Source of the DNA: an uncultured Pseudomonadota bacterium
GTDB lineage: Bacteria > Pseudomonadota > Alphaproteobacteria > Rs-D84
Length of the DNA: 64,000 bases
Assembly: GCA_949290785.1 (NCBI GenBank)
Contig: CASETE010000004.1
Span: 12,794-76,793, forward strand
Direction of reading: 5' to 3'
Part shown: one piece after another, positions 11,987 to 61,911 of the stretch
Layout: every line of letters begins with the position of its first letter
How positions within the stretch are numbered: position 1 is the stretch's first letter
Notes under the pieces: generated by a model
Told to the model about the DNA's origin: nothing
Database searches by the model: none
The model's input: only the letters and a program-made list of their open reading frames with translations
Translations under genes and position numbers: made by a program

Positions 11987-14900
11987 TTAGAAGTTATATC
12001 TAAACTTCAACATACCTGTATGAGAAGTGTAATCTTCATGCAAGTCTAAGTCATAGTTCAAGGATACTTCTACACCCTTATAAATACCTACCAAACCGAT
12101 ACCGAATTCACCGCCCAAGCGAGACAAGCGATCTGCATCGATTACATAAGATAGATTACCTGGTGCAGTAATTGTTGCGACTGCAGAATCAGACAAGAAG
12201 TCATATGTAGCTGCTGCACGCAATTCTGGGCGTAAACTTAATTCAGAATCTGTTTCGATTTCGAACGCATACTTAACGCCTGCTACACCTGTCAGATAGT
12301 CTGTATCCAACGCGTCAACTTCGCCCAACCAGCTCTGATATGCATCCTGGCTGATGTGCAGGTAACGCATACCAACTTCTGGTGTGAAACCGGATGCAAA
12401 GTCATAACCCGTCATGATTTGACCACCGAACGAATCGACATCATATTCTGTCTTGCGTTTGAATCCATATGGATCCGCAGATTCGTCATAGTTAGCCATT
12501 GTATAATTCAATGCTGCATTGACATACCATTCGTTTGGCTTGTACTGGCCATACAGGAACAAGCTGTTCGATTCGATACCTGTATCACGCGAATTCGAAT
12601 CGACATCAGTGTCATTGTATGCATAACCGATACCCAGAGTATATTTACCGTCAATCAGTGTATCTGCACCGACAGAAATACCCCATGTATCGCCGCTGAA
12701 CTTGCCATTATATTTCGAATGGTTGTACAGACCCTGGACCCACAGGCCATAATCCGCAGATGTTAAATCACCACCACTGCGGCCGACCGATGCACCGGAC
12801 ATACGACCCGCAGCCAGCGACATCACCTGGTTCTGGACAGACGATGCGACCGATTGTGCGACCGGCTTGTCATCTGGGTTCAGTTTTGCCAGTTCTTTTT
12901 CAGCATTGCCAGTCTTGCCCGCGACCAGGTCTTGTTGCGCCATCAGCGAAATCGTATTCAACACATCGTCATTTGTGTTGGCCATGATGCTGACCGCGTT
13001 TGCCGCACCCATCGACAGGTTTGTACCCTGGGCAATTTCTTCCACTGATTTGGTTGCAACAGTGATTTCACCTGTTTCACCGAATGTGGCGTCATAGATT
13101 GCATTGTTATACACAATCTTATCTTCTGGTACTGTCACACCAAAGTTATATGTACCCACAGATCCAAACATCAGGTTCAACAGTCCGTTATCGCCAACGG
13201 TGATATTGCCTGTTTCGACACGACCATACGAACCCTGGTTCAAGATTTGTGCAGTCAGTGTACCTTCCAGTGTAACCTCAGACTGTTTTACGGTTGTTGT
13301 ACCGATATTCAGTGTTGCACCTTCTGCAATATTCAAAGAACCAGTACCTGAGATACCACTGCCGATAATAGTTGTACCAGAAGCGACATCAATTATACCG
13401 TCGTTATGTATATCGTTTGCAACGCCTGCAGCAGTATTACCAGCGAAAACGTTGTTTCCAGCGAATTCCATTTTTGCAACGGATTCATTATAGATAGCAC
13501 CGCCTGAAACACCTGCTGTATTTCCTATAAATACTGCATCTGCAATACTTGTTTTCTCAAAAGTATTATAAATAGCACCACCATAAGTACCCGCTGCATT
13601 GCCAGCGAATTCTACCCTCTTCAGATTCAGTTCCGCTTTTGTATTTGGTTTCAAATAATCTGTAGAAGTATCATATCCTTCTGGGGCACTTCCTTTATCA
13701 TTAATTGTTTTATCTGTTGATGCACTATACCAATCCGCGCGAGTTGAAATGGCTCCACCAGTTACAGTAGAACTATTATTTTTAAACAACGCATTCTCAA
13801 CATCTGTTTTAGAAGCGCTACCAACAAACAAAGCACCACCACCATCTATACTAGTCCGCAAATTATGGTTATCATAACCGTCATCTACAAGTGCACCTGT
13901 AACTTTATTACCGTCAAATATGCTTTGTGAAATATTTATTTCCATATTAGCATAGTTTGCGATGGCACCAGCCCCATAAACCGCCTCATTTCCAGAGAAT
14001 AACGTTCCAGAAATAACCGCAGCACCCTTACCAGTACCATTATCATTATAACCAGAATATAGTGCACCGCCCACAAACTCCGTACTATTATTAACAAAAG
14101 AGGAATCAGTGATACTCATTTGTCCCTTAGAACCGATAGCACCGCCATATCCATAACCTGTACTTTTATTTTCTACAAATGACGCATTTTTAACTGTTAA
14201 ATTCGCATCAACATCGTTGACAATAGCACCGCCATCTAAAACGGCCGTATTATCACTAAATAATCCGCTAACTGTCAGGTCACCTGTATTATAAATAGCA
14301 CCACCATATGCTTTACCAGATTCTGATATCGCTTTATTGGCAATGAAATCACCATTTACTGTCAACGTACCTGCATTATAAATGGCACCACCCAACGCAT
14401 TGGTTGAATTTGTAGAAACATAATTATTTGTAAAATTACCATTAATATTGGCAACTACACTATATTCACCATCTTCTTTAATGGAAATCGCGCCACCAGT
14501 GGAATCTTTTTTATTATCATTTGTACCTGTTGTCGCAACAGCAAAGTTTCCATCAAAATTACCGACAATTTCATCAATTTGTACACCGTACTTATCTACA
14601 CCTTCACGGTCATTTGCACCAGCTTTGATATACAATGCACCACCGTTTGCATAACCGTCACCATGTGCGCTATTACCTGTGAAATTACCTTCAATACGTC
14701 CGATTGTAACAGGTCCTTCACCAAAAGCACCTTGGATATGCATTGCACCACCACCAGCAGAAATTTGATCATCACTTGTGTATGATGTTTCACCTTCACC
14801 AGCATACTTTGCTATTGCCGAGTTTCCTGTGAAATCGCCTGTGATAGAACCGATGTTGGTACCACCATATAAAGCAAAAGCACCACCATTAACGGTTGCT

Positions 14901-15283
14901 TTACCTTTATTTACTGTATCTGATGTATTTACAACAGAGTTATTTTCAAAGGTTCCTGTAATTGCACCAATACTACCATTATTATATAAAACAGAGCCTT
15001 GACCATAAATTTCGCCGCTACTGGATTCAGTTTTAATCAAATTAACTGTATTACCAGAAACTGTACCTGCATTAATTGCATCAATTTCTTTTCCCGATTC
15101 AACTTTTAATACGCCACCATTACGAGATGTATCGTCATCAACATCATATGTATTTTCGATCCAACTTTCTACATCTGTTGGATTACTATACTGAGCATTT
15201 TCAGCCATAGCAGGCATAATTGCCAGTGCTGGCAACACAGAGCAGATTTTTAATAAATCAGCCAAATGTTTGTATGTCGACAT
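11987..15283 (-). CDS. Autotransporter adhesin-like protein with Pmp-type repeats (tandem paralog)
   Basis: 1098 aa with the same GGAI/FxxN repeat architecture. The C-terminal beta domain is collinear with 8830..11874 and ends MLKFRYNF. Confidence 0.85.
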   Translation of the reverse strand: MSTYKHLADLLKICSVLPALAIMPAMAENAQYSNPTDVESWIENTYDVDDDTSRNGGVLKVESGKEIDAINAGTVSGNTVNLIKTESSSGEIYGQGSVLYNNGSIGAITGTFENNSVVNTSDTVNKGKATVNGGAFALYGGTNIGSITGDFTGNSAIAKYAGEGETSYTSDDQISAGGGAMHIQGAFGEGPVTIGRIEGNFTGNSAHGDGYANGGALYIKAGANDREGVDKYGVQIDEIVGNFDGNFAVATTGTNDNKKDSTGGAISIKEDGEYSVVANINGNFTNNYVSTNSTNALGGAIYNAGTLTVNGDFIANKAISESGKAYGGAIYNTGDLTVSGLFSDNTAVLDGGAIVNDVDANLTVKNASFVENKSTGYGYGGAIGSKGQMSITDSSFVNNSTEFVGGALYSGYNDNGTGKGAAVISGTLFSGNEAVYGAGAIANYANMEINISQSIFDGNKVTGALVDDGYDNHNLRTSIDGGGALFVGSASKTDVENALFKNNSSTVTGGAISTRADWYSASTDKTINDKGSAPEGYDTSTDYLKPNTKAELNLKRVEFAGNAAGTYGGAIYNTFEKTSIADAVFIGNTAGVSGGAIYNESVAKMEFAGNNVFAGNTAAGVANDIHNDGIIDVASGTTIIGSGISGTGSLNIAEGATLNIGTTTVKQSEVTLEGTLTAQILNQGSYGRVETGNITVGDNGLLNLMFGSVGTYNFGVTVPEDKIVYNNAIYDATFGETGEITVATKSVEEIAQGTNLSMGAANAVSIMANTNDDVLNTISLMAQQDLVAGKTGNAEKELAKLNPDDKPVAQSVASSVQNQVMSLAAGRMSGASVGRSGGDLTSADYGLWVQGLYNHSKYNGKFSGDTWGISVGADTLIDGKYTLGIGYAYNDTDVDSNSRDTGIESNSLFLYGQYKPNEWYVNAALNYTMANYDESADPYGFKRKTEYDVDSFGGQIMTGYDFASGFTPEVGMRYLHISQDAYQSWLGEVDALDTDYLTGVAGVKYAFEIETDSELSLRPELRAAATYDFLSDSAVATITAPGNLSYVIDADRLSRLGGEFGIGLVGIYKGVEVSLNYDLDLHEDYTSHTGMLKFRYNF

Positions 15284-15383: not shown

Positions 15384-15620
15384 AAAAAACCGCCAAGGAA
15401 ATGGCGGTCGGGGAGTTAAGAAAATCACCCAAAAGTATGACCCCGCCAGTTTTCGGGATACCCTATTTTATAACTGACGGCTCCCCGACCTGATACGGGG
15501 TTCAGAGACAATAAATGGCGCAAATCCGCGCCGTGTATCATCCCTACATTTCAGCATAAAAAACTTATGCTGCTTTTGGGTTGGCTTTCTTACGGCCCGA
15601 AGCCACATCCCTGTGGATTC
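15384..15620 (-). ncRNA. Candidate structured RNA / attenuator leader, copy A (unknown class)
   Basis: It is bounded by a near-consensus promoter (15627-15654) and a terminator (ACCGCCA-loop-TGGCGGT plus T6 at 15384-15408). It contains a 10-bp long-range helix (15406-15415 with 15481-15490). That helix is mutually exclusive with hairpin 15483-15500 and overlaps the terminator stem by 3 nt. A paralog lies at 61028-61237. Confidence 0.5.
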
Positions 15621-15626
15621 AAAAAA

Positions 15627-42655: not shown

Positions 42656-43033
42656 TTATTTACCCTTTACAGCGGACCCCGCAACAACAACGCGCTTTCC
42701 CTTACGAGTACGAGCATTTGTTTGCGTACGTTGACCGCGAACCGGCAAACGATTACGATGACGAATACCGCGATAAGTTTTCAAATCTTGCAAACGTTTA
42801 ATATTCATTGCAACTTCACGGCGAACATCGCCTTCTACTTTAAAGTTTTCTTCTATATACTTAGAAATTTTAACAACATCCTCGTCAGTCAAGTCTTTCG
42901 CACGCAATCCATCTTTTAATTTCAAAGCCTTGCAAATTTGCGCGGACTTTGCCGGTCCGATACCATGGATGTACTGCAACGCGATTTCAATGCGCTTTTC
43001 CGTAGGAATGTTAACACCTGCTATACGTGCCAT
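42656..43033 (-). CDS. rpsM: 30S ribosomal protein S13
   Basis: [26 protein letters not shown]. Confidence 0.95.
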
Positions 43034-43134
43034 TTTTCATTTTCCTTTTTATTTATTTCAGTGTACTAAATGCACCCTGATATTTTCTCTGTAAAACCGT
43101 TTTCAGATTTACAAGAGTTTTTATTTGTCGCCTT

Positions 43135-46873: not shown

Positions 46874-47272
46874 TTAGATAACCTTGCACAACACTTCGCC
46901 ACCGACATTCATCAAGCGCGCCTTGTGGTCGGTCATAACGCCGTTTGGTGTAGAAACAATCGCAATGCCCAAGCCGTTTAATACTTTCGGCATTTTTGCG
47001 CTGCCAGAATATACACGACGACCTGGCTTTGAAACGACTGAAATTTCTTGGATTGCACCGTTTCCGCCTACATACTTTAATTCAATTACCAAATTAGCGC
47101 GATGTTCGTCAATCTGTTCTTTACGGAAATCAGTGATGAAACCTTCATCTTTCAAAACAGTTAAAACTGCTGCACGCAATTTGCTGTTTGGAACAGTTAC
47201 AAATTCTTTACCGGCATTCTGACCGTTACGAATACGGGTCAGCATATCTCCGATTGGGTGTGATAATGACAT
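46874..47272 (-). CDS. rpsH: 30S ribosomal protein S8
   Basis: MSLSHPIGDMLTRIRNGQNAGK. Confidence 0.95.
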   Translation of the reverse strand: MSLSHPIGDMLTRIRNGQNAGKEFVTVPNSKLRAAVLTVLKDEGFITDFRKEQIDEHRANLVIELKYVGGNGAIQEISVVSKPGRRVYSGSAKMPKVLNGLGIAIVSTPNGVMTDHKARLMNVGGEVLCKVI

Positions 47273-47345
47273 CTTTTACTCCTTCTAAGCGACGATATTT
47301 TCGTCCTTGTTTCCAGCTGCATTGTCCACAACTGGCGTTTAAAAT

Positions 47346-60457: not shown

Positions 60458-60991
60458 CTAAAAAAGCGTTCTGAAAGACAGCCTAAAACCATTCGTATCT
60501 GCTGATAAATTTACTTTTGTATCATAAGAATCAACAACGCCCCACGTCACTATTGCGCTTACCGCGGCACCAGCCAGAACGTCATGCCAATAATGCGCCC
60601 TGACATGCACTCTTGTCCAACCCGTCAATACAGCCATAGCATAAGGAACAACGGCAGACCGCCAACCGTACCTTTTATGAACGAACATCGCACTAGAGAA
60701 AGCGCCCGCAGAATGCCCACTGGGGAAAGATAAATCATCACTACCATTTGGTCTTTCTTCACGGATTGTTCTTTTAAGAATTTCTGTAACTCCTTGTGAC
60801 AAGACGACAGATTCTGCAAATTGTACTGTACCAATAAAATCTTTTGCTTGTACCGTCATCCCCAGCGCATATCCAGCCCCCATTGTCATCAATAAGTCCC
60901 CTAATTTATTTGGGTCTGTAAAAGGTCCAGCAACAGCAAATTTTGAACCAAACAATACCGCAATAAACGATATACAAACTTTTTTATTCAT
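60458..60991 (-). CDS. PAP2-family lipid phosphatase (177 aa), secreted/periplasmic
   Basis: Start moved to MNKKVCISFIAVLFGSKFAVAG (ATG 60991). It has the acid-phosphatase motifs KRTIREERPNG, PSGHSAGAF and RVHVRAHYWHDVLAGA. The upstream part of ORF 60458..61216 overlaps RNA element B and is not considered coding. Confidence 0.8.
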   Translation of the reverse strand: MNKKVCISFIAVLFGSKFAVAGPFTDPNKLGDLLMTMGAGYALGMTVQAKDFIGTVQFAESVVLSQGVTEILKRTIREERPNGSDDLSFPSGHSAGAFSSAMFVHKRYGWRSAVVPYAMAVLTGWTRVHVRAHYWHDVLAGAAVSAIVTWGVVDSYDTKVNLSADTNGFRLSFRTLF

Positions 60992-61027
60992 TCTGTTTTT
61001 CCCTTTTTCTGCCAAAAAATGCAGCAA

Positions 61028-61237
61028 GAAAAACCACCAAATAAATTGGTGGTCGGGAGTTGAACAGTCAAATATACGATGACCTTGTTGCCTTCGGAAT
61101 AAGTACCTATTGTATAGCAACAACATCCCGACCAAAATCGGGACATAAGTCAGTTCGTTTAGTATATTCGGGTGTTCAAGCCCTTCCTTACTAACCATTG
61201 TCTTTATAAAGAACATCTAAACCCACATCTAGATGCA
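61028..61237 (-). ncRNA. Candidate structured RNA / attenuator leader, copy B (paralog of 15384..15620)
   Basis: Terminator ACCACCA-loop-TGGTGGT plus T5 at 61028-61053. The long-range helix is 61051-61058 with 61126-61133, and the competing hairpin is 61127-61142. Blocks shared with copy A are GAUGUGG, GUAAG.AAG, GGUCAU and U.AACUCCC.GACC. The 5' end is uncertain (weak TAGACA-17-ATTATA promoter near 61244-61272). Confidence 0.45.
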
Positions 61238-61277
61238 CTTTTATATAATAGCAAGTCAGTAAACTTTGTCTATAAAA

Positions 61278-61305
61278 ATAATCCGACCAAACGGCCGGAT
61301 TATTG
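61278..61305 (-). terminator. Intrinsic terminator after 61327..61911
   Basis: On the minus strand, AATAATCCGGCC-GTTT-GGTCGGATTATT is followed by TTTTATAG. Confidence 0.65.
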
Positions 61306-61326
61306 TCTTTTTTGCTGTCGCATAAC

Positions 61327-61911
61327 TTAGAAGTTATACAAGAACCCAATCTGGAAAGCACCGGTATTGGCAACGTTTGAAGAATCTACGTTAAAGCCAA
61401 AAGACCAGTCTTCTGGTACATCCAAATCTTTGTTTTCAAAGTTATAACCAGCATACACACCCATAAAGTTCAGGTTAGCATACAGTGTAAAAGCTTCTGA
61501 TATATCGTATGTTATCATTGGTACGACAGACGCTGACAAACCAATCGTTGTTTCGCCGTCGCGTACATCTACATCAGAAAACAGTGTTTGGAAGTTTGCA
61601 CCAACCGAGGCTTTTGCCAACAGTTTAAAATCGCCAAACTGTGCTATTTTATAACGCGTGAATCCGTTAACGCCGTAATTAAACACATCATCGTTATGTT
61701 CATCATCATTATAAGTATAACCCAGATTAATACCCATACCAAAATCCCAGTTATCGTTATATTTCCAGCCGACTTCTGGTGCAACATTTACAATATTAGT
61801 ATGTGTATCATCCATTGATAAGCCAGCAGAGCCGCCGACAAAGTAATTTGCCGCTTGGGCACTGGACACAGCAAAAACCGCCAACACAGAAGTTAAAACT
61901 ATTTTTTTCAT
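61327..61911 (-). CDS. Small outer-membrane beta-barrel protein (OmpW/opacity-porin-like, 8-strand class)
   Basis: Signal peptide MKKIVLTSVLAVFAVSSAQA, alternating beta strands, and a C-terminal GAFQIGFLYNF. Confidence 0.65.
   Translation of the reverse strand: MKKIVLTSVLAVFAVSSAQAANYFVGGSAGLSMDDTHTNIVNVAPEVGWKYNDNWDFGMGINLGYTYNDDEHNDDVFNYGVNGFTRYKIAQFGDFKLLAKASVGANFQTLFSDVDVRDGETTIGLSASVVPMITYDISEAFTLYANLNFMGVYAGYNFENKDLDVPEDWSFGFNVDSSNVANTGAFQIGFLYNF

What the first reader, a model, noticed from the sequence alone, without database searches (positions are those of the whole stretch)
61028..61272. Second copy of the same RNA architecture (element B) upstream of a PAP2 lipid phosphatase, with compensatory base changes
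Element B repeats the layout of element A with different sequence that keeps the pairing:
- Hairpin CCCGA-UUUUGG-UCGGG (A: CCCCG...CGGGG).
- Long-range helix GGUCGGGA...UCCCGACC.
- Terminator ACCACCA/UGGUGGU (A: ACCGCCA/UGGCGGU).

Collinear conserved single-stranded blocks are GAUGUGG, GUAAG(A/G)AAG, GGUCAU and U(U/C)AACUCCC. It lies between an OMP gene terminator and the PAP2 start (about 35 nt from terminator to ATG). Two paralogs preceding two different envelope genes argue for a cis-regulatory RNA class responding to a common signal, possibly linked to envelope or lipid remodelling.
Basis: seen in the sequence. Interest (0 to 1): 0.62.

Follow-up and report, generated by a model that had tools for sequence, protein, structure and literature searches.

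The report
Pseudoknotted terminator leader before PAP2 gene
Element B is a real folded RNA leader of about 210 bases, with its own promoter and stop signal, in front of a lipid-phosphatase gene; it belongs to a large family that tiny-genome gut bacteria place before surface-protein genes, and the family is built like the Bartonella Brt RNAs and the phage/integron RNA sRNA-Xcc1.

Summary
On the minus strand, 61238..61029, a sigma-70-like promoter drives a structured RNA that ends in an intrinsic terminator 37 nt before the PAP2 start codon.

Element B is not one of two copies. This 1-Mb genome holds 8, relatives hold 2-50 each, and the family also occurs in at least 20 other alphaproteobacterial families. 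In 93 of 94 copies a co-oriented gene with a ribosome-binding site follows (median gap 24 nt), and about 80% of those genes encode exported proteins.

Covariation across 98 copies supports these features:
- P1, which encloses P2 and P3.
- A competing hairpin, P0.
- A terminator whose lower 4 bp reuse the 3' strand of P1.
- Two copy-specific pseudoknots that tie a 5' domain to the P3 loop and to J3/1.

The core scores below threshold against sRNA-Xcc1 (37.8 bits against a cut-off of 53). Bartonella Brt RNAs show the same architecture. Canonical sRNA-Xcc1 loci carry the same 5' domain plus two target sites that flank the downstream ribosome-binding site, the c4-type layout as I recall it; B lacks those sites.

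Most likely mechanism: a cis-acting attenuator with terminator, antiterminator and anti-antiterminator. The signal is unknown and no experiment or usable RNA-seq supports it here.

Verdict: a new variant of a known kind.

The parts
61245..61272 (-). Promoter: -35 TAGACA (61272-61267), 16-nt spacer, extended -10 TG-n-TATTAT (61250-61245). The inferred transcription start is about 61238.
   Evidence: 10 of 12 matches, TG present. The 7 other genomic copies show comparable -35/-10 boxes by eye. The start site is inferred, not measured.
61213..61236 (-). Pa, the 5'-terminal hairpin (GCAUCUAGAU / GUUUAGAUGU).
   Evidence: MFE fold. In the G117 ortholog the sequence differs, and by eye a short hairpin may still form there. 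A-type copies carry a GNRA loop (GGGA, GAGA or GAAA) here on covarying stems.
61170..61183 (-). Pb hairpin GGG-CUUGAACA-CCC. Its loop UUGAACA (61179-61173) is the 5' strand of pseudoknot PK2.
   Evidence: Read from the sequence. At least 6 Watson-Crick pairs between the Pb loop and J3/1 occur in 67 of 92 copies, against about 16 expected from permuted partners.
61162..61170 (-). 5' strand of pseudoknot PK1 (CGAAUAUAC; Watson-Crick core AAUAUAC at 61168-61162).
   Evidence: At least 7 Watson-Crick pairs with the P3 loop occur in 76 of 92 copies, against 3.3 expected. The sequence differs in each copy.
61138..61143 (-). Segment b, the 5' strand of P0 (UCCCGA). It pairs with 61131-61126 and mimics segment d. 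Proposed anti-antiterminator.
   Evidence: P0 is paired in 87% of cells. Column 4 covaries with column 35 (CG 62, UA 9, UG 6).
61126..61133 (-). Segment c, the 5' strand of P1 (GGUCGGGA). It is shared between P0 and P1.
   Evidence: The same column 35 covaries with both partners: column 148 in P1 (GC 74, AU 12) and column 4 in P0.
61085..61123 (-). P2, a long hairpin whose internal loop is conserved across the family (UAUACAAUA at 61116-61108; GAAGG at 61095-61091).
   Evidence: all 6 outer and 3 inner pairs show changes on both sides. The loop sequence matches the consensus of RF02221.
61067..61083 (-). P3 hairpin (GUCA/UGAC). Its loop contains the 3' strand of PK1, GUAUAUU (61077-61071).
   Evidence: 98.6% paired, 5 of 5 pairs with double changes.
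61060..61066 (-). J3/1, the 3' strand of PK2 (UGUUCAA).
   Evidence: read from the sequence.
61051..61058 (-). Segment d, the 3' strand of P1 (UCCCGACC). Its last 4 nt (GACC) are also the base of the terminator stem. Proposed antiterminator when paired with c.
   Evidence: P1 is paired in 95.7% of cells and 3 pairs show double changes; the lower terminator pairs 153-156 with 180-183 are kept in 88-96% of copies.
61029..61054 (-). Intrinsic terminator GACCACCAA-UUUAU-UUGGUGGUU plus U-tract.
   Evidence: The upper stem covaries (helix 5). In 91 of 98 copies, 7-9 of the 12 nt from the terminator's 3' GG onwards are T.
60458..61003 (-). Regulated gene: SD-like GGG (61003-61001), ATG (60991-60989), and a PAP2-family phosphatase of 177 aa with a signal-peptide-like N-terminus.
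   Evidence: PF01569, E 2e-16, 60.4 bits against a cut-off of 27.2.
15384..15622 (-). Element A, a paralogous leader before the 1098-aa Pmp-type autotransporter gene (11987..15283).
   Evidence: 108.6 bits. PK2 UAAGAAA/UUUCUUA and PK1 CCCAAAAG/CUUUUGGG.
61274..61911 (-). Upstream OMP-like gene (194 aa, ends GFLYNF) and its own terminator. It bounds the element on the 5' side.
   Evidence: Pfam gives only a sub-threshold FadL-type match.

Best explanation
Element B is the transcribed leader of the PAP2 gene. It has its own promoter and runs about 210 nt (61238..61029, minus strand). It most likely works as a cis-acting transcription attenuator built from four segments.

The segments:
- b: UCCCGA.
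- c: GGUCGGGA.
- d: UCCCGACC.
- t: the 3' strand of the terminator, GGUGGUU.

The two states:
- OFF state: b pairs with c (P0), and d plus ACCA pairs with t. This gives a full 8-9-bp hairpin that abuts the U-tract, and transcription stops 37 nt before the ATG.
- ON state: c pairs with d (P1) and closes a three-way junction with P2 and P3. This removes GACC from the base of the terminator stem, so RNA polymerase reads through into PAP2.

A 5' domain is tied to the core by two copy-specific pseudoknots: the Pb loop with J3/1, directly 5' of d, and the next segment with the P3 loop. It probably sets the balance between the states. The family-invariant internal loop of P2 is the best candidate site for a shared protein or small-molecule effector.

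What is shown:
- All the helices, by covariation.
- The conserved overlap of P1 and the terminator.
- The fixed position before genes.
- The lack of room for a second promoter.

What is inferred:
- That termination and read-through actually alternate.
- Which state is the default.
- What the signal is.
For: (1) Anatomy of B: promoter and terminator, pairings.

(2) Family: 8 copies in the own genome, matches in 35 of 41 related genomes, 2-50 copies per genome of about 1 Mb.

(3) Covariation on 98 copies. P1, P2, P3 and the upper terminator reach 95.5% paired with 0 of 500 shuffles as high. P0 plus the full terminator reaches 92.9%. One column of c covaries with both its P0 partner and its P1 partner. 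The terminator's 3' GG that pairs with the CC of d is kept in 92-93 of 98 copies.

(4) Pseudoknots: PK1 in 76 of 92 copies against 3.3 expected; PK2 in 67 of 92 against about 16 expected.

(5) Cis position: 93 of 94 copies have a co-oriented RBS-ORF, and 82 of these start within 40 nt. Such a gene has no room for a promoter of its own.

(6) Purifying selection: the leader is 94% identical to the ortholog, the PAP2 coding sequence 73%.

(7) Bartonella Brt RNAs show the same P0, P1, P2, P3, PK1 and PK2 directly upstream of co-oriented XRE genes. For Brt1, deleting the 3' stem-loop derepresses the downstream gene, and the RNA is abundant while the gene is silent (PMC5387305, PMC8070961).

(8) Established knowledge of intrinsic terminators: the stem must abut the U-tract. 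Loss of the lower 4 bp should therefore cripple termination.
Against: - There is no transcript-end or read-through data for B. Public RNA runs gave only low-depth contigs that miss the leader.
- In nested energy models the terminator fold wins by about 13 kcal/mol for B and about 10-12 for A. This is an upper bound, because the model cannot score the pseudoknots together with P1.
- The overlap of P1 and the terminator is only 4 nt, so a frayed P1 and a 6-bp terminator could coexist.
- A P0-like segment, seen by eye in about five canonical sRNA-Xcc1 loci that have no terminator, suggests P0 did not evolve for this switch.
- No ligand or factor is identified.
- Homology with Brt rests on a weak model score (18.5 bits, E 0.025) plus shared architecture.
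Confidence: 0.55

Rival explanations
1. The element is chiefly a gene for a stable, terminated small RNA that acts by base-pairing, as a c4 / sRNA-Xcc1-type antisense RNA. Its two exposed segments (P3 loop and J3/1) bind two sites on a target mRNA. The terminator is simply its 3' end, and PAP2 is expressed through constitutive leak.
For: - Canonical sRNA-Xcc1 loci carry two sites complementary to J3/1 and to the P3 loop at about +5 and +17. These flank the ribosome-binding site of the next gene.
- Copy D of this genome keeps such sites (UUAAUCA-AAAGGA-UAUUAC-AAUG).
- Brt1 has reported trans effects (PMC5387305).
Against: - B has no such sites in its own mRNA.
- B's two-part address occurs once in the whole genome, in its own 5' domain.
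- Family-wide there is no excess complementarity to the 120 nt downstream: 4.76 against 4.72 for the P3 loop, and paired sites in 6 of 98 copies against 3.1 expected.
- In cis both segments are occupied by the 5' domain.
Confidence: 0.18
2. It is a structural 5' leader whose compact double-pseudoknot fold protects or processes the mRNA, for example against 5' decay or as an RNase P substrate. This would use the tRNA-like P1 followed by ACCA. There is no regulated switch, and the terminator is merely leaky.
For: - In B, P1 is followed by ACCA and in A by GCCA. Canonical sRNA-Xcc1 cores are followed by RCC(A/C).
- From my own knowledge, c4 RNA is matured by RNase P.
- The pseudoknots can form in either state.
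Against: - RCCA is not invariant. Those positions covary as terminator stem pairs (helix 5).
- The conserved mimicry of b with d, and of c with the terminator's 3' strand, has no purpose in a static fold.
- Placing a terminator before most surface-protein genes only to leak is costly.
Confidence: 0.12
3. It is a dispersed repeat or a remnant of a mobile element (MITE-like, or part of an insertion sequence) that happens to carry a promoter and a terminator.
For: - Copy number is high: 50 matches in G019, many of them near contig ends.
- Relatives of sRNA-Xcc1 travel on integron cassettes and phages.
Against: - Paralogs share only about 54-66% mean column identity in alignment, yet keep every helix through compensatory changes.
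- Orientation relative to the next gene is near-invariant.
- No terminal repeats or transposase were noticed next to the 8 genomic copies.
- It is conserved at an orthologous locus more strongly than the neighbouring coding sequence.
Confidence: 0.03

Closest known systems
Bartonella regulatory transcripts Brt1-9 with their downstream trp (XRE) genes (Tu et al. 2016, PMC5387305; review PMC8070961)
   Same: - Alphaproteobacterial, multicopy, about 200 nt, and directly upstream of a co-oriented gene that has no promoter of its own.
- Same parts in the same order in the 117 distinct Bartonella copies I extracted: 5' hairpin, G-rich Pb hairpin, P0, P1 enclosing P2 and P3, J3/1.
- Both copy-specific pseudoknots are present: PK2 6.83 against 4.88 and PK1 5.61 against 4.14 for permuted partners.
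- Reported behaviour: an abundant terminated RNA, a silent downstream gene, and derepression when the 3' stem-loop is deleted.
   Different: - Brt ends in a GC hairpin (GCGAG-GGCG-CUCGC) with no U-tract, whereas B has a canonical intrinsic terminator that overlaps P1.
- Brt precedes XRE regulators, B a PAP2 phosphatase, and the Rs-D84 copies mostly exported proteins.
- My model scores Brt only 15-20 bits.
- The Brt papers call the family genus-specific. In the parts I read they do not describe the pseudoknots or any relative outside Bartonella.
sRNA-Xcc1 (Rfam RF02221; Xanthomonas integron cassettes, Xylella islands, APSE phage)
   Same: - The 90-nt core has the same P1, P2 with AUACAA and GAA internal loop, P3 and J3/1 layout. 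B aligns end to end over the model.
- Canonical loci also carry the upstream Pb hairpin and the next segment, complementary to J3/1 and the P3 loop, at about -95 and -82. By eye, about five of them also have a P0-like segment.
   Different: - B scores 37.8 bits and A 42.5, below the 53-bit gathering score.
- Canonical loci have no terminator after P1. Instead they carry two target sites flanking the ribosome-binding site of the next gene.
- B has the terminator and lacks the sites.
c4 antisense RNA of phages P1 and P7 (Rfam RF01695) and IsrK
   Same: - From my own knowledge: a leader-encoded RNA with two short antisense segments (a', b'). These match sites upstream (a1, b1) and at the ribosome-binding site downstream (a2, b2) in the same transcript, and they differ between related elements.
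- This is the layout I found at canonical sRNA-Xcc1 loci.
- C4, IsrK and sRNA-Xcc1 are annotated one after another on the same strand, within about 400 nt, in one Xylella genome (PMC12189769).
   Different: - No Rfam match to C4 or IsrK in B or in 20 other copies, even at permissive thresholds.
- B lacks a2 and b2.
- The relationship is by layout only and was not tested by sequence here.
Classical terminator / antiterminator / anti-antiterminator leaders (trp-type attenuators, T-box, transcriptional riboswitches)
   Same: - Four-segment logic, 1:2 and 3:4 against 2:3, placed before the regulated gene.
- A large structured sensor domain, as in T-box leaders or riboswitches.
   Different: - No conserved leader peptide: reading frames in the 5' domain are not shared among copies.
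- No specifier or T-box motifs, and no Rfam riboswitch hit.
- Segments 2 and 3 are separated by a 65-nt junction that is clamped by two pseudoknots.

Membership tests
sRNA-Xcc1 (RF02221) | Score at or above Rfam's gathering threshold (53 bits) | tested here: not met
   B scores 37.8 bits and A 42.5. Five other copies score 37.9-44.5.
sRNA-Xcc1 (RF02221) | Secondary structure: a 9-bp closing helix around a long hairpin with an AUACAA/GAA internal loop, a short hairpin, and a 6-nt joiner | tested here: met
   Full-length alignment over model positions 1-87. The same helices are supported by covariation on 98 copies.
sRNA-Xcc1 (RF02221) | Two sites complementary to J3/1 and the P3 loop, flanking the ribosome-binding site of the downstream gene. 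This is a feature I found at canonical loci; it is not part of the Rfam definition. | tested here: not met
   Clear, correctly spaced sites (about +5 and +17) in at least 15 of 25 canonical loci. Absent in B. In the family, 6 of 98 copies against 3.1 expected.
Brt RNAs (Bartonella) | RNA of about 200 nt directly upstream of, and co-oriented with, a gene that lacks its own promoter; ends in a 3' stem-loop that attenuates | tested here: met
   Position and 3' hairpin are met for B. Attenuation itself was not testable here.
Brt RNAs (Bartonella) | Sequence homology to Brt1-9 | tested here: inconclusive
   Model R1 hits Brt loci at 15.6-19.6 bits, E 0.014-0.12, on the strand of the XRE gene. The architecture, including both pseudoknots, matches.
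Brt RNAs (Bartonella) | Downstream gene is an XRE-type HTH regulator (Trp) | tested here: not met
   The gene after B is PAP2. Some family members in other Alphaproteobacteria do precede XRE genes (L107, L108).
c4 antisense RNA (RF01695) | Match to the Rfam model | tested here: not met
   No C4 or IsrK hit at E up to 10 for B, or at E up to 0.01 for 20 other loci.
Transcriptional riboswitch | Direct, specific binding of a small molecule that changes the terminator/antiterminator choice | not testable with these tools
   Only the expression-platform logic and a conserved internal loop are seen. No ligand is known. For Brt1 a response to heme concentration is reported, with no binding shown (PMC8070961).
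Intrinsic (Rho-independent) terminator | GC-rich stem of at least 5 bp, a short loop, and a U-tract directly after the stem | tested here: met
   9 pairs, 4 of them GC, a 5-nt loop, and UUUUU after the stem. Conserved across copies.

The most novel reading that the evidence does not exclude
The Rs-D84 / Brt branch is a new class of effector-sensing transcription switch that evolved from a c4 / sRNA-Xcc1-type antisense module. The two antisense segments are permanently occupied in cis by the 5' domain and so build a double-pseudoknotted sensor. The invariant P2 internal loop binds one shared signal, either a small molecule derived from the host or a partner organism, or a protein. One input would then gate the whole surface proteome of these bacteria with genomes of about 1 Mb, up to 50 genes per genome, including lipid A or lipid phosphatases such as the PAP2 gene behind B.
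Probability: 0.15. Interest if true: 0.85.

Novelty: new variant of a known kind. Interest (0 to 1): 0.6.

Why it matters
These gut bacteria are uncultured, have genomes of about 1 Mb, and are thought to depend on partner organisms (PMC12306168).

**A dominant control device.** Eight copies in this genome, and up to 50 in relatives, sit before genes for outer-membrane proteins, autotransporters, lipoproteins, glycosyltransferases and PAP2 phosphatases. If the leader works as an attenuator, it would be a main control device for the cell surface, which is the interface with host or partner.

**Three literatures joined.** The structural link brings together:
- the Bartonella Brt attenuators, which have genetics but no structural model;
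- sRNA-Xcc1, a widespread RNA of unclear function, found over the Rfam cut-off in 46 of 401 sampled Pseudomonadota genomes;
- c4-type antisense immunity RNAs.

**Concrete hypotheses.** The link yields testable ideas for Brt and for sRNA-Xcc1:
- Two pseudoknots, and a four-segment switch, for Brt.
- Two target sites flanking the ribosome-binding site, for sRNA-Xcc1.

Tried and rejected
- **Leader-peptide attenuation.** ATG-initiated frames exist in the 5' domains of A, C, G and H. They are not conserved in E, F, B or D and lack a ribosome-binding site. Rejected.
- **c4-type self-targeting for B.** There are no sites in its mRNA, and no second occurrence of its two-part address in the genome. 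Rejected for B; true for copy D.
- **Dispersed repeat.** Rejected.
- **Expression evidence.** Four calls to find or lay runs gave only Logan contigs at depth 2-13. The B leader is not covered. The region of A is present in gut and chicken metatranscriptomes, but contigs also span a tRNA gene on the other strand, so DNA carry-over cannot be excluded. Inconclusive.
- **Other Rfam families.** Only RF02221, below threshold.
- **Brt probe in the 28 class-level genomes with hits.** No match, so I used the single named genome scan on the Brt probe instead. As a result the organism's name was not verified independently.
- **The look-up of encoding contigs for PAP2.** Not on record.
- **Nested energy comparison of the two states.** Computed, but not decisive, because the model cannot score the pseudoknots together with P1.
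Full report
**1. What is at the coordinates**

The element lies on the minus strand.
- A sigma-70-like promoter, TAGACA-16-TATTAT with an upstream TG, occupies 61272..61245 (10 of 12 matches). It directly follows the terminator of an OMP-like gene (61327..61911, C-terminus GFLYNF).
- From about 61238 the sequence runs about 210 nt to an intrinsic terminator at 61054..61032. The terminator has 9 pairs, a 5-nt loop and a U5 tract ending at 61029.
- The ATG of a 177-aa PAP2 phosphatase (PF01569, E 2e-16) follows 37 nt later, at 60991-60989.
- Element A (15622..15384, minus strand, before a 1098-aa Pmp-type autotransporter) has the same layout.

**2. It is a family, not a pair**

*Copies in this genome.* blastn and nhmmer on the window's own genome (999,534 bp, 23 contigs) found 8 full copies. 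Each has promoter-like boxes, a terminator, and a co-oriented gene 17-125 nt downstream. The genes are:
- a Pmp autotransporter;
- two PAP2 paralogs;
- a 246-aa beta-barrel outer-membrane protein;
- a bPH membrane protein;
- a GT2 glycosyltransferase;
- a 370-aa cysteine-rich secreted protein;
- a 91-aa lipoprotein.

*Model search.* A covariance model of the core plus terminator (R1) scores the 8 copies at 85-109 bits. In related genomes it finds:
- matches in 35 of 41 genomes, with 2-50 copies per genome of about 1 Mb;
- matches in 28 of 398 other genomes of the same class, in at least 20 families.

*Position before genes.* I collected 98 copies.
- Of the 94 with enough flank, 93 have a co-oriented ORF with a ribosome-binding site.
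- 82 of those start within 40 nt of the U-tract, with a median of 24 nt.
- 74 of the 93 have a signal-peptide-like N-terminus.

*Gene families.* Pfam hits among the 89 downstream proteins scanned:
- GT2, 4 proteins;
- OMP beta-barrel, 4;
- Chlam_PMP and autotransporter, 3;
- PAP2, 3;
- YadA anchor, 2;
- single cases: an EcoRI-type methylase, PLD, a superinfection-immunity protein and others.

Most of the rest appear to have no Pfam family at all.

**3. Structure**

*Nested helices.* On the 98-copy alignment the P1, P2, P3 and upper-terminator structure is paired in 95.5% of cells. Twenty-one of 28 pairs show changes on both sides, 0 of 500 shuffles reach the observed values, and slid controls fall to 31-53%. 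The alignment is fitted to the model, so this leans towards the structure.

*Alternative fold.* The fold that RNAalifold prefers is P0 plus the full 8-bp terminator. It is paired in 92.9% of cells.

*Evidence that both alternatives are kept:*
- One column of the shared strand c (column 35) covaries with its P1 partner (GC 74, AU 12) and with its P0 partner (CG 62, UA 9, UG 6).
- The terminator's 3' GG pairs with the CC at the end of P1's 3' strand and is kept in 92-93 of 98 copies.

So the overlap of P1 and the terminator is a conserved feature. Segment b mimics d, and c mimics the terminator's 3' strand.

*Two long-range pairings.* I found two further pairings that differ in sequence in every copy.

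| Pseudoknot | Partners | In B | In A | Support |
|---|---|---|---|---|
| PK1 | Segment just 3' of the Pb hairpin, with the P3 loop | AAUAUAC 61168-61162 : GUAUAUU 61077-61071 | CCCAAAAG : CUUUUGGG | At least 7 Watson-Crick pairs in 76 of 92 copies, 3.3 expected from permuted partners |
| PK2 | Pb loop, with J3/1 | UUGAACA 61179-61173 : UGUUCAA 61066-61060 | UAAGAAA : UUUCUUA | At least 6 pairs in 67 of 92 copies, about 16 expected |

- GAUGUGG lies in a 5' hairpin that has a different sequence in the ortholog.

**4. Selection**

In another species of the genus (G117, locus L103) the same arrangement occurs: gene terminator, leader, then PAP2.
- The 3' 166 nt of the leader are 94% identical. 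The differences lie mainly in loops, plus one G-C to G-U change.
- The PAP2 coding sequence is 73% identical at the nucleotide level and 75% at the amino-acid level.

**5. Relatives that are already described**

*(a) sRNA-Xcc1.* Rfam's permissive scan aligns B end to end with sRNA-Xcc1 (RF02221) at 37.8 bits and A at 42.5 bits, both below the 53-bit cut-off. Other copies give 38-45 bits, and C4 or IsrK never appear.

*(b) Brt.*
- I took the Brt probe and primer sequences from Table S6 of PMC5387305 and scanned named genomes.
- R1 hits them only weakly (15.6-19.6 bits). The hits lie on the strand of the XRE gene and directly upstream of it.
- The cloning orientation of the antisense construct in the paper agrees that this strand is Brt.
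- The 117 distinct Brt copies show Pa, Pb, P0, P1, P2, P3 and J3/1 in the same order.
- Both pseudoknots covary: PK2 6.83 against 4.88, and PK1 5.61 against 4.14.
- For Brt1 the literature reports an abundant terminated RNA and a silent downstream gene. It also reports derepression on deletion of the 3' stem-loop, no effect of temperature or pH, and a reporter that rises as heme falls.

*(c) Canonical sRNA-Xcc1 loci.* Canonical sRNA-Xcc1 is common: 46 of 401 sampled genomes of the phylum score over the cut-off. At 25 such loci I found:
- the same upstream Pb hairpin and next segment, at about -95 and -82 (J3/1 7.76 against 5.13);
- in most loci, two downstream sites at about +5 and +17 that flank the Shine-Dalgarno sequence of the next gene (6.12 against 4.66; 5.68 against 4.47).

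As I recall it, this is the layout known for phage P1/P7 c4. A Xylella genome annotates C4, IsrK and sRNA-Xcc1 one after another on the same strand within about 400 nt.

*(d) Downstream sites in the Rs-D84 family.*
- Family-wide the sites are absent: 4.76 against 4.72 for the P3 loop, and paired sites in 6 of 98 copies against 3.1 expected.
- The exception is copy D, before the other PAP2 paralog, which reads UUAAUCA-AAAGGA-UAUUAC-AAUG.
- B has none, and its two-part address occurs only once in the genome, in its own 5' domain.

**6. Mechanism**

*Why read-through is needed.* The gene starts 37 nt after the U-tract, so it must be transcribed from the leader's promoter through the terminator.

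*The switch.* The conserved four-segment design (b:c and d:t, against c:d) is that of an attenuator.
- P1 acts as antiterminator because it holds the 4 nt that form the stem base next to the U-tract. From established knowledge of intrinsic terminators, that contact is needed for termination.
- P0 acts as anti-antiterminator.
- The 5' domain, docked through PK1 and PK2 next to strand d, probably sets the balance.
- The invariant P2 internal loop is the best candidate effector site.

*Energies.* Nested energy models favour the terminator state: B -70.7 against -57.7, and A about -100 against -90.8 kcal/mol. These models convert the pseudoknots into nested helices that exclude P1 and P3, so the gap is an upper bound.

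*What I cannot say.* I cannot tell which state is the default or what the signal is.

*Odds:*
- Conditional attenuator: 0.55.
- Mainly a base-pairing small RNA with a leaky terminator: 0.18.
- Static protective or processing leader: 0.12.
- Repeat: 0.03.

**7. Organism**

- The genome is about 1 Mb, the sampled genomes of its order are all 0.5-1.1 Mb, and the runs that hold it are gut and chicken-gut metagenomes.
- This fits Candidatus Enterousia / order Rs-D84 as described in PMC12306168 and as named in earlier notes of this scan.
- I did not verify the name independently.

**8. Novelty**

- The family is not in Rfam as such.
- The Brt papers treat Brt as genus-specific and, in the parts I read, give no pseudoknot model.
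- The papers I searched do not describe an RBS-flanking layout at sRNA-Xcc1 loci. One of them places sRNA-Xcc1 upstream of symE.
- B differs from sRNA-Xcc1 by its terminator platform and missing target sites. It differs from Brt by its U-tract terminator and its cargo.
- I therefore class it as a new variant of a known kind.
- Earlier agents of this scan reached similar readings in other genomes. I treated those as leads and re-derived each point here.

Noticed in passing
L006:1990-2025 (= G000:C13 about 91330-91356, minus strand): Copy D, before the second PAP2 paralog, keeps a c4-type target. UUAAUCA is complementary to its own J3/1 and GAUAUUACAA to its own P3 loop, and the two flank the SD AAGGA just before the AUG. 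L038 (another family, PAP2 ortholog) has similar sites inside the first codons.
   Followed up: partly
L232-L256 (canonical sRNA-Xcc1 loci in other Pseudomonadota): The RF02221 core is the middle of a unit of about 250 nt. Upstream lie a G-rich hairpin and the next segment, complementary to J3/1 and the P3 loop, then a hairpin plus U-tract that looks like an internal terminator. Downstream lie two sites that flank the ribosome-binding site of the next gene. P1 is followed by RCC(A/C), which resembles a tRNA 3' end.
   Followed up: partly
G000:C11:36265-36877 (+), outside the window: Three tandem weak matches to model R1 (34-35 bits for two of them). These are the tandem 'Brt-like' RNAs that an earlier agent described, probably a divergent branch of the same superfamily.
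   Followed up: no
G000:C2 about 47140-47300 (-), locus L008: The GT2 glycosyltransferase ORF behind copy F stops after 51 aa and starts 125 nt after the terminator. The ortholog in G005 is 285 aa. This may be a pseudogene, a frameshift or an assembly error.
   Followed up: no
G019 (same genus), many contigs: 50 matches in a genome of about 1 Mb, many of them 100-250 nt or about 1.2-1.6 kb from contig ends. Near-identical flanking genes, perhaps paralogous surface-protein families, may be breaking the assembly there.
   Followed up: no
window 43001-43085 (-): The Rfam Alpha_RBS model (RF00140), which I recall as a gammaproteobacterial leader family, matches just over threshold (39 bits against 38) in what appears to be an alphaproteobacterium.
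   Followed up: no
window 15595-15612 (-) and equivalent positions in L014, L015, L018, L020, L022, L023, L025, L029, L034, L040: The first hairpin (Pa) of A-type copies carries a GNRA tetraloop (GGGA, GAGA or GAAA) on covarying stems, which suggests a tetraloop-receptor contact. B, D, E and F lack it.
   Followed up: no
window 15384-15402 (-), run X14: A 3.7-kb metatranscriptome contig from a related strain matches element A down to 15402 and then diverges. The terminator loop and the downstream gene therefore differ between strains while the core is kept.
   Followed up: no
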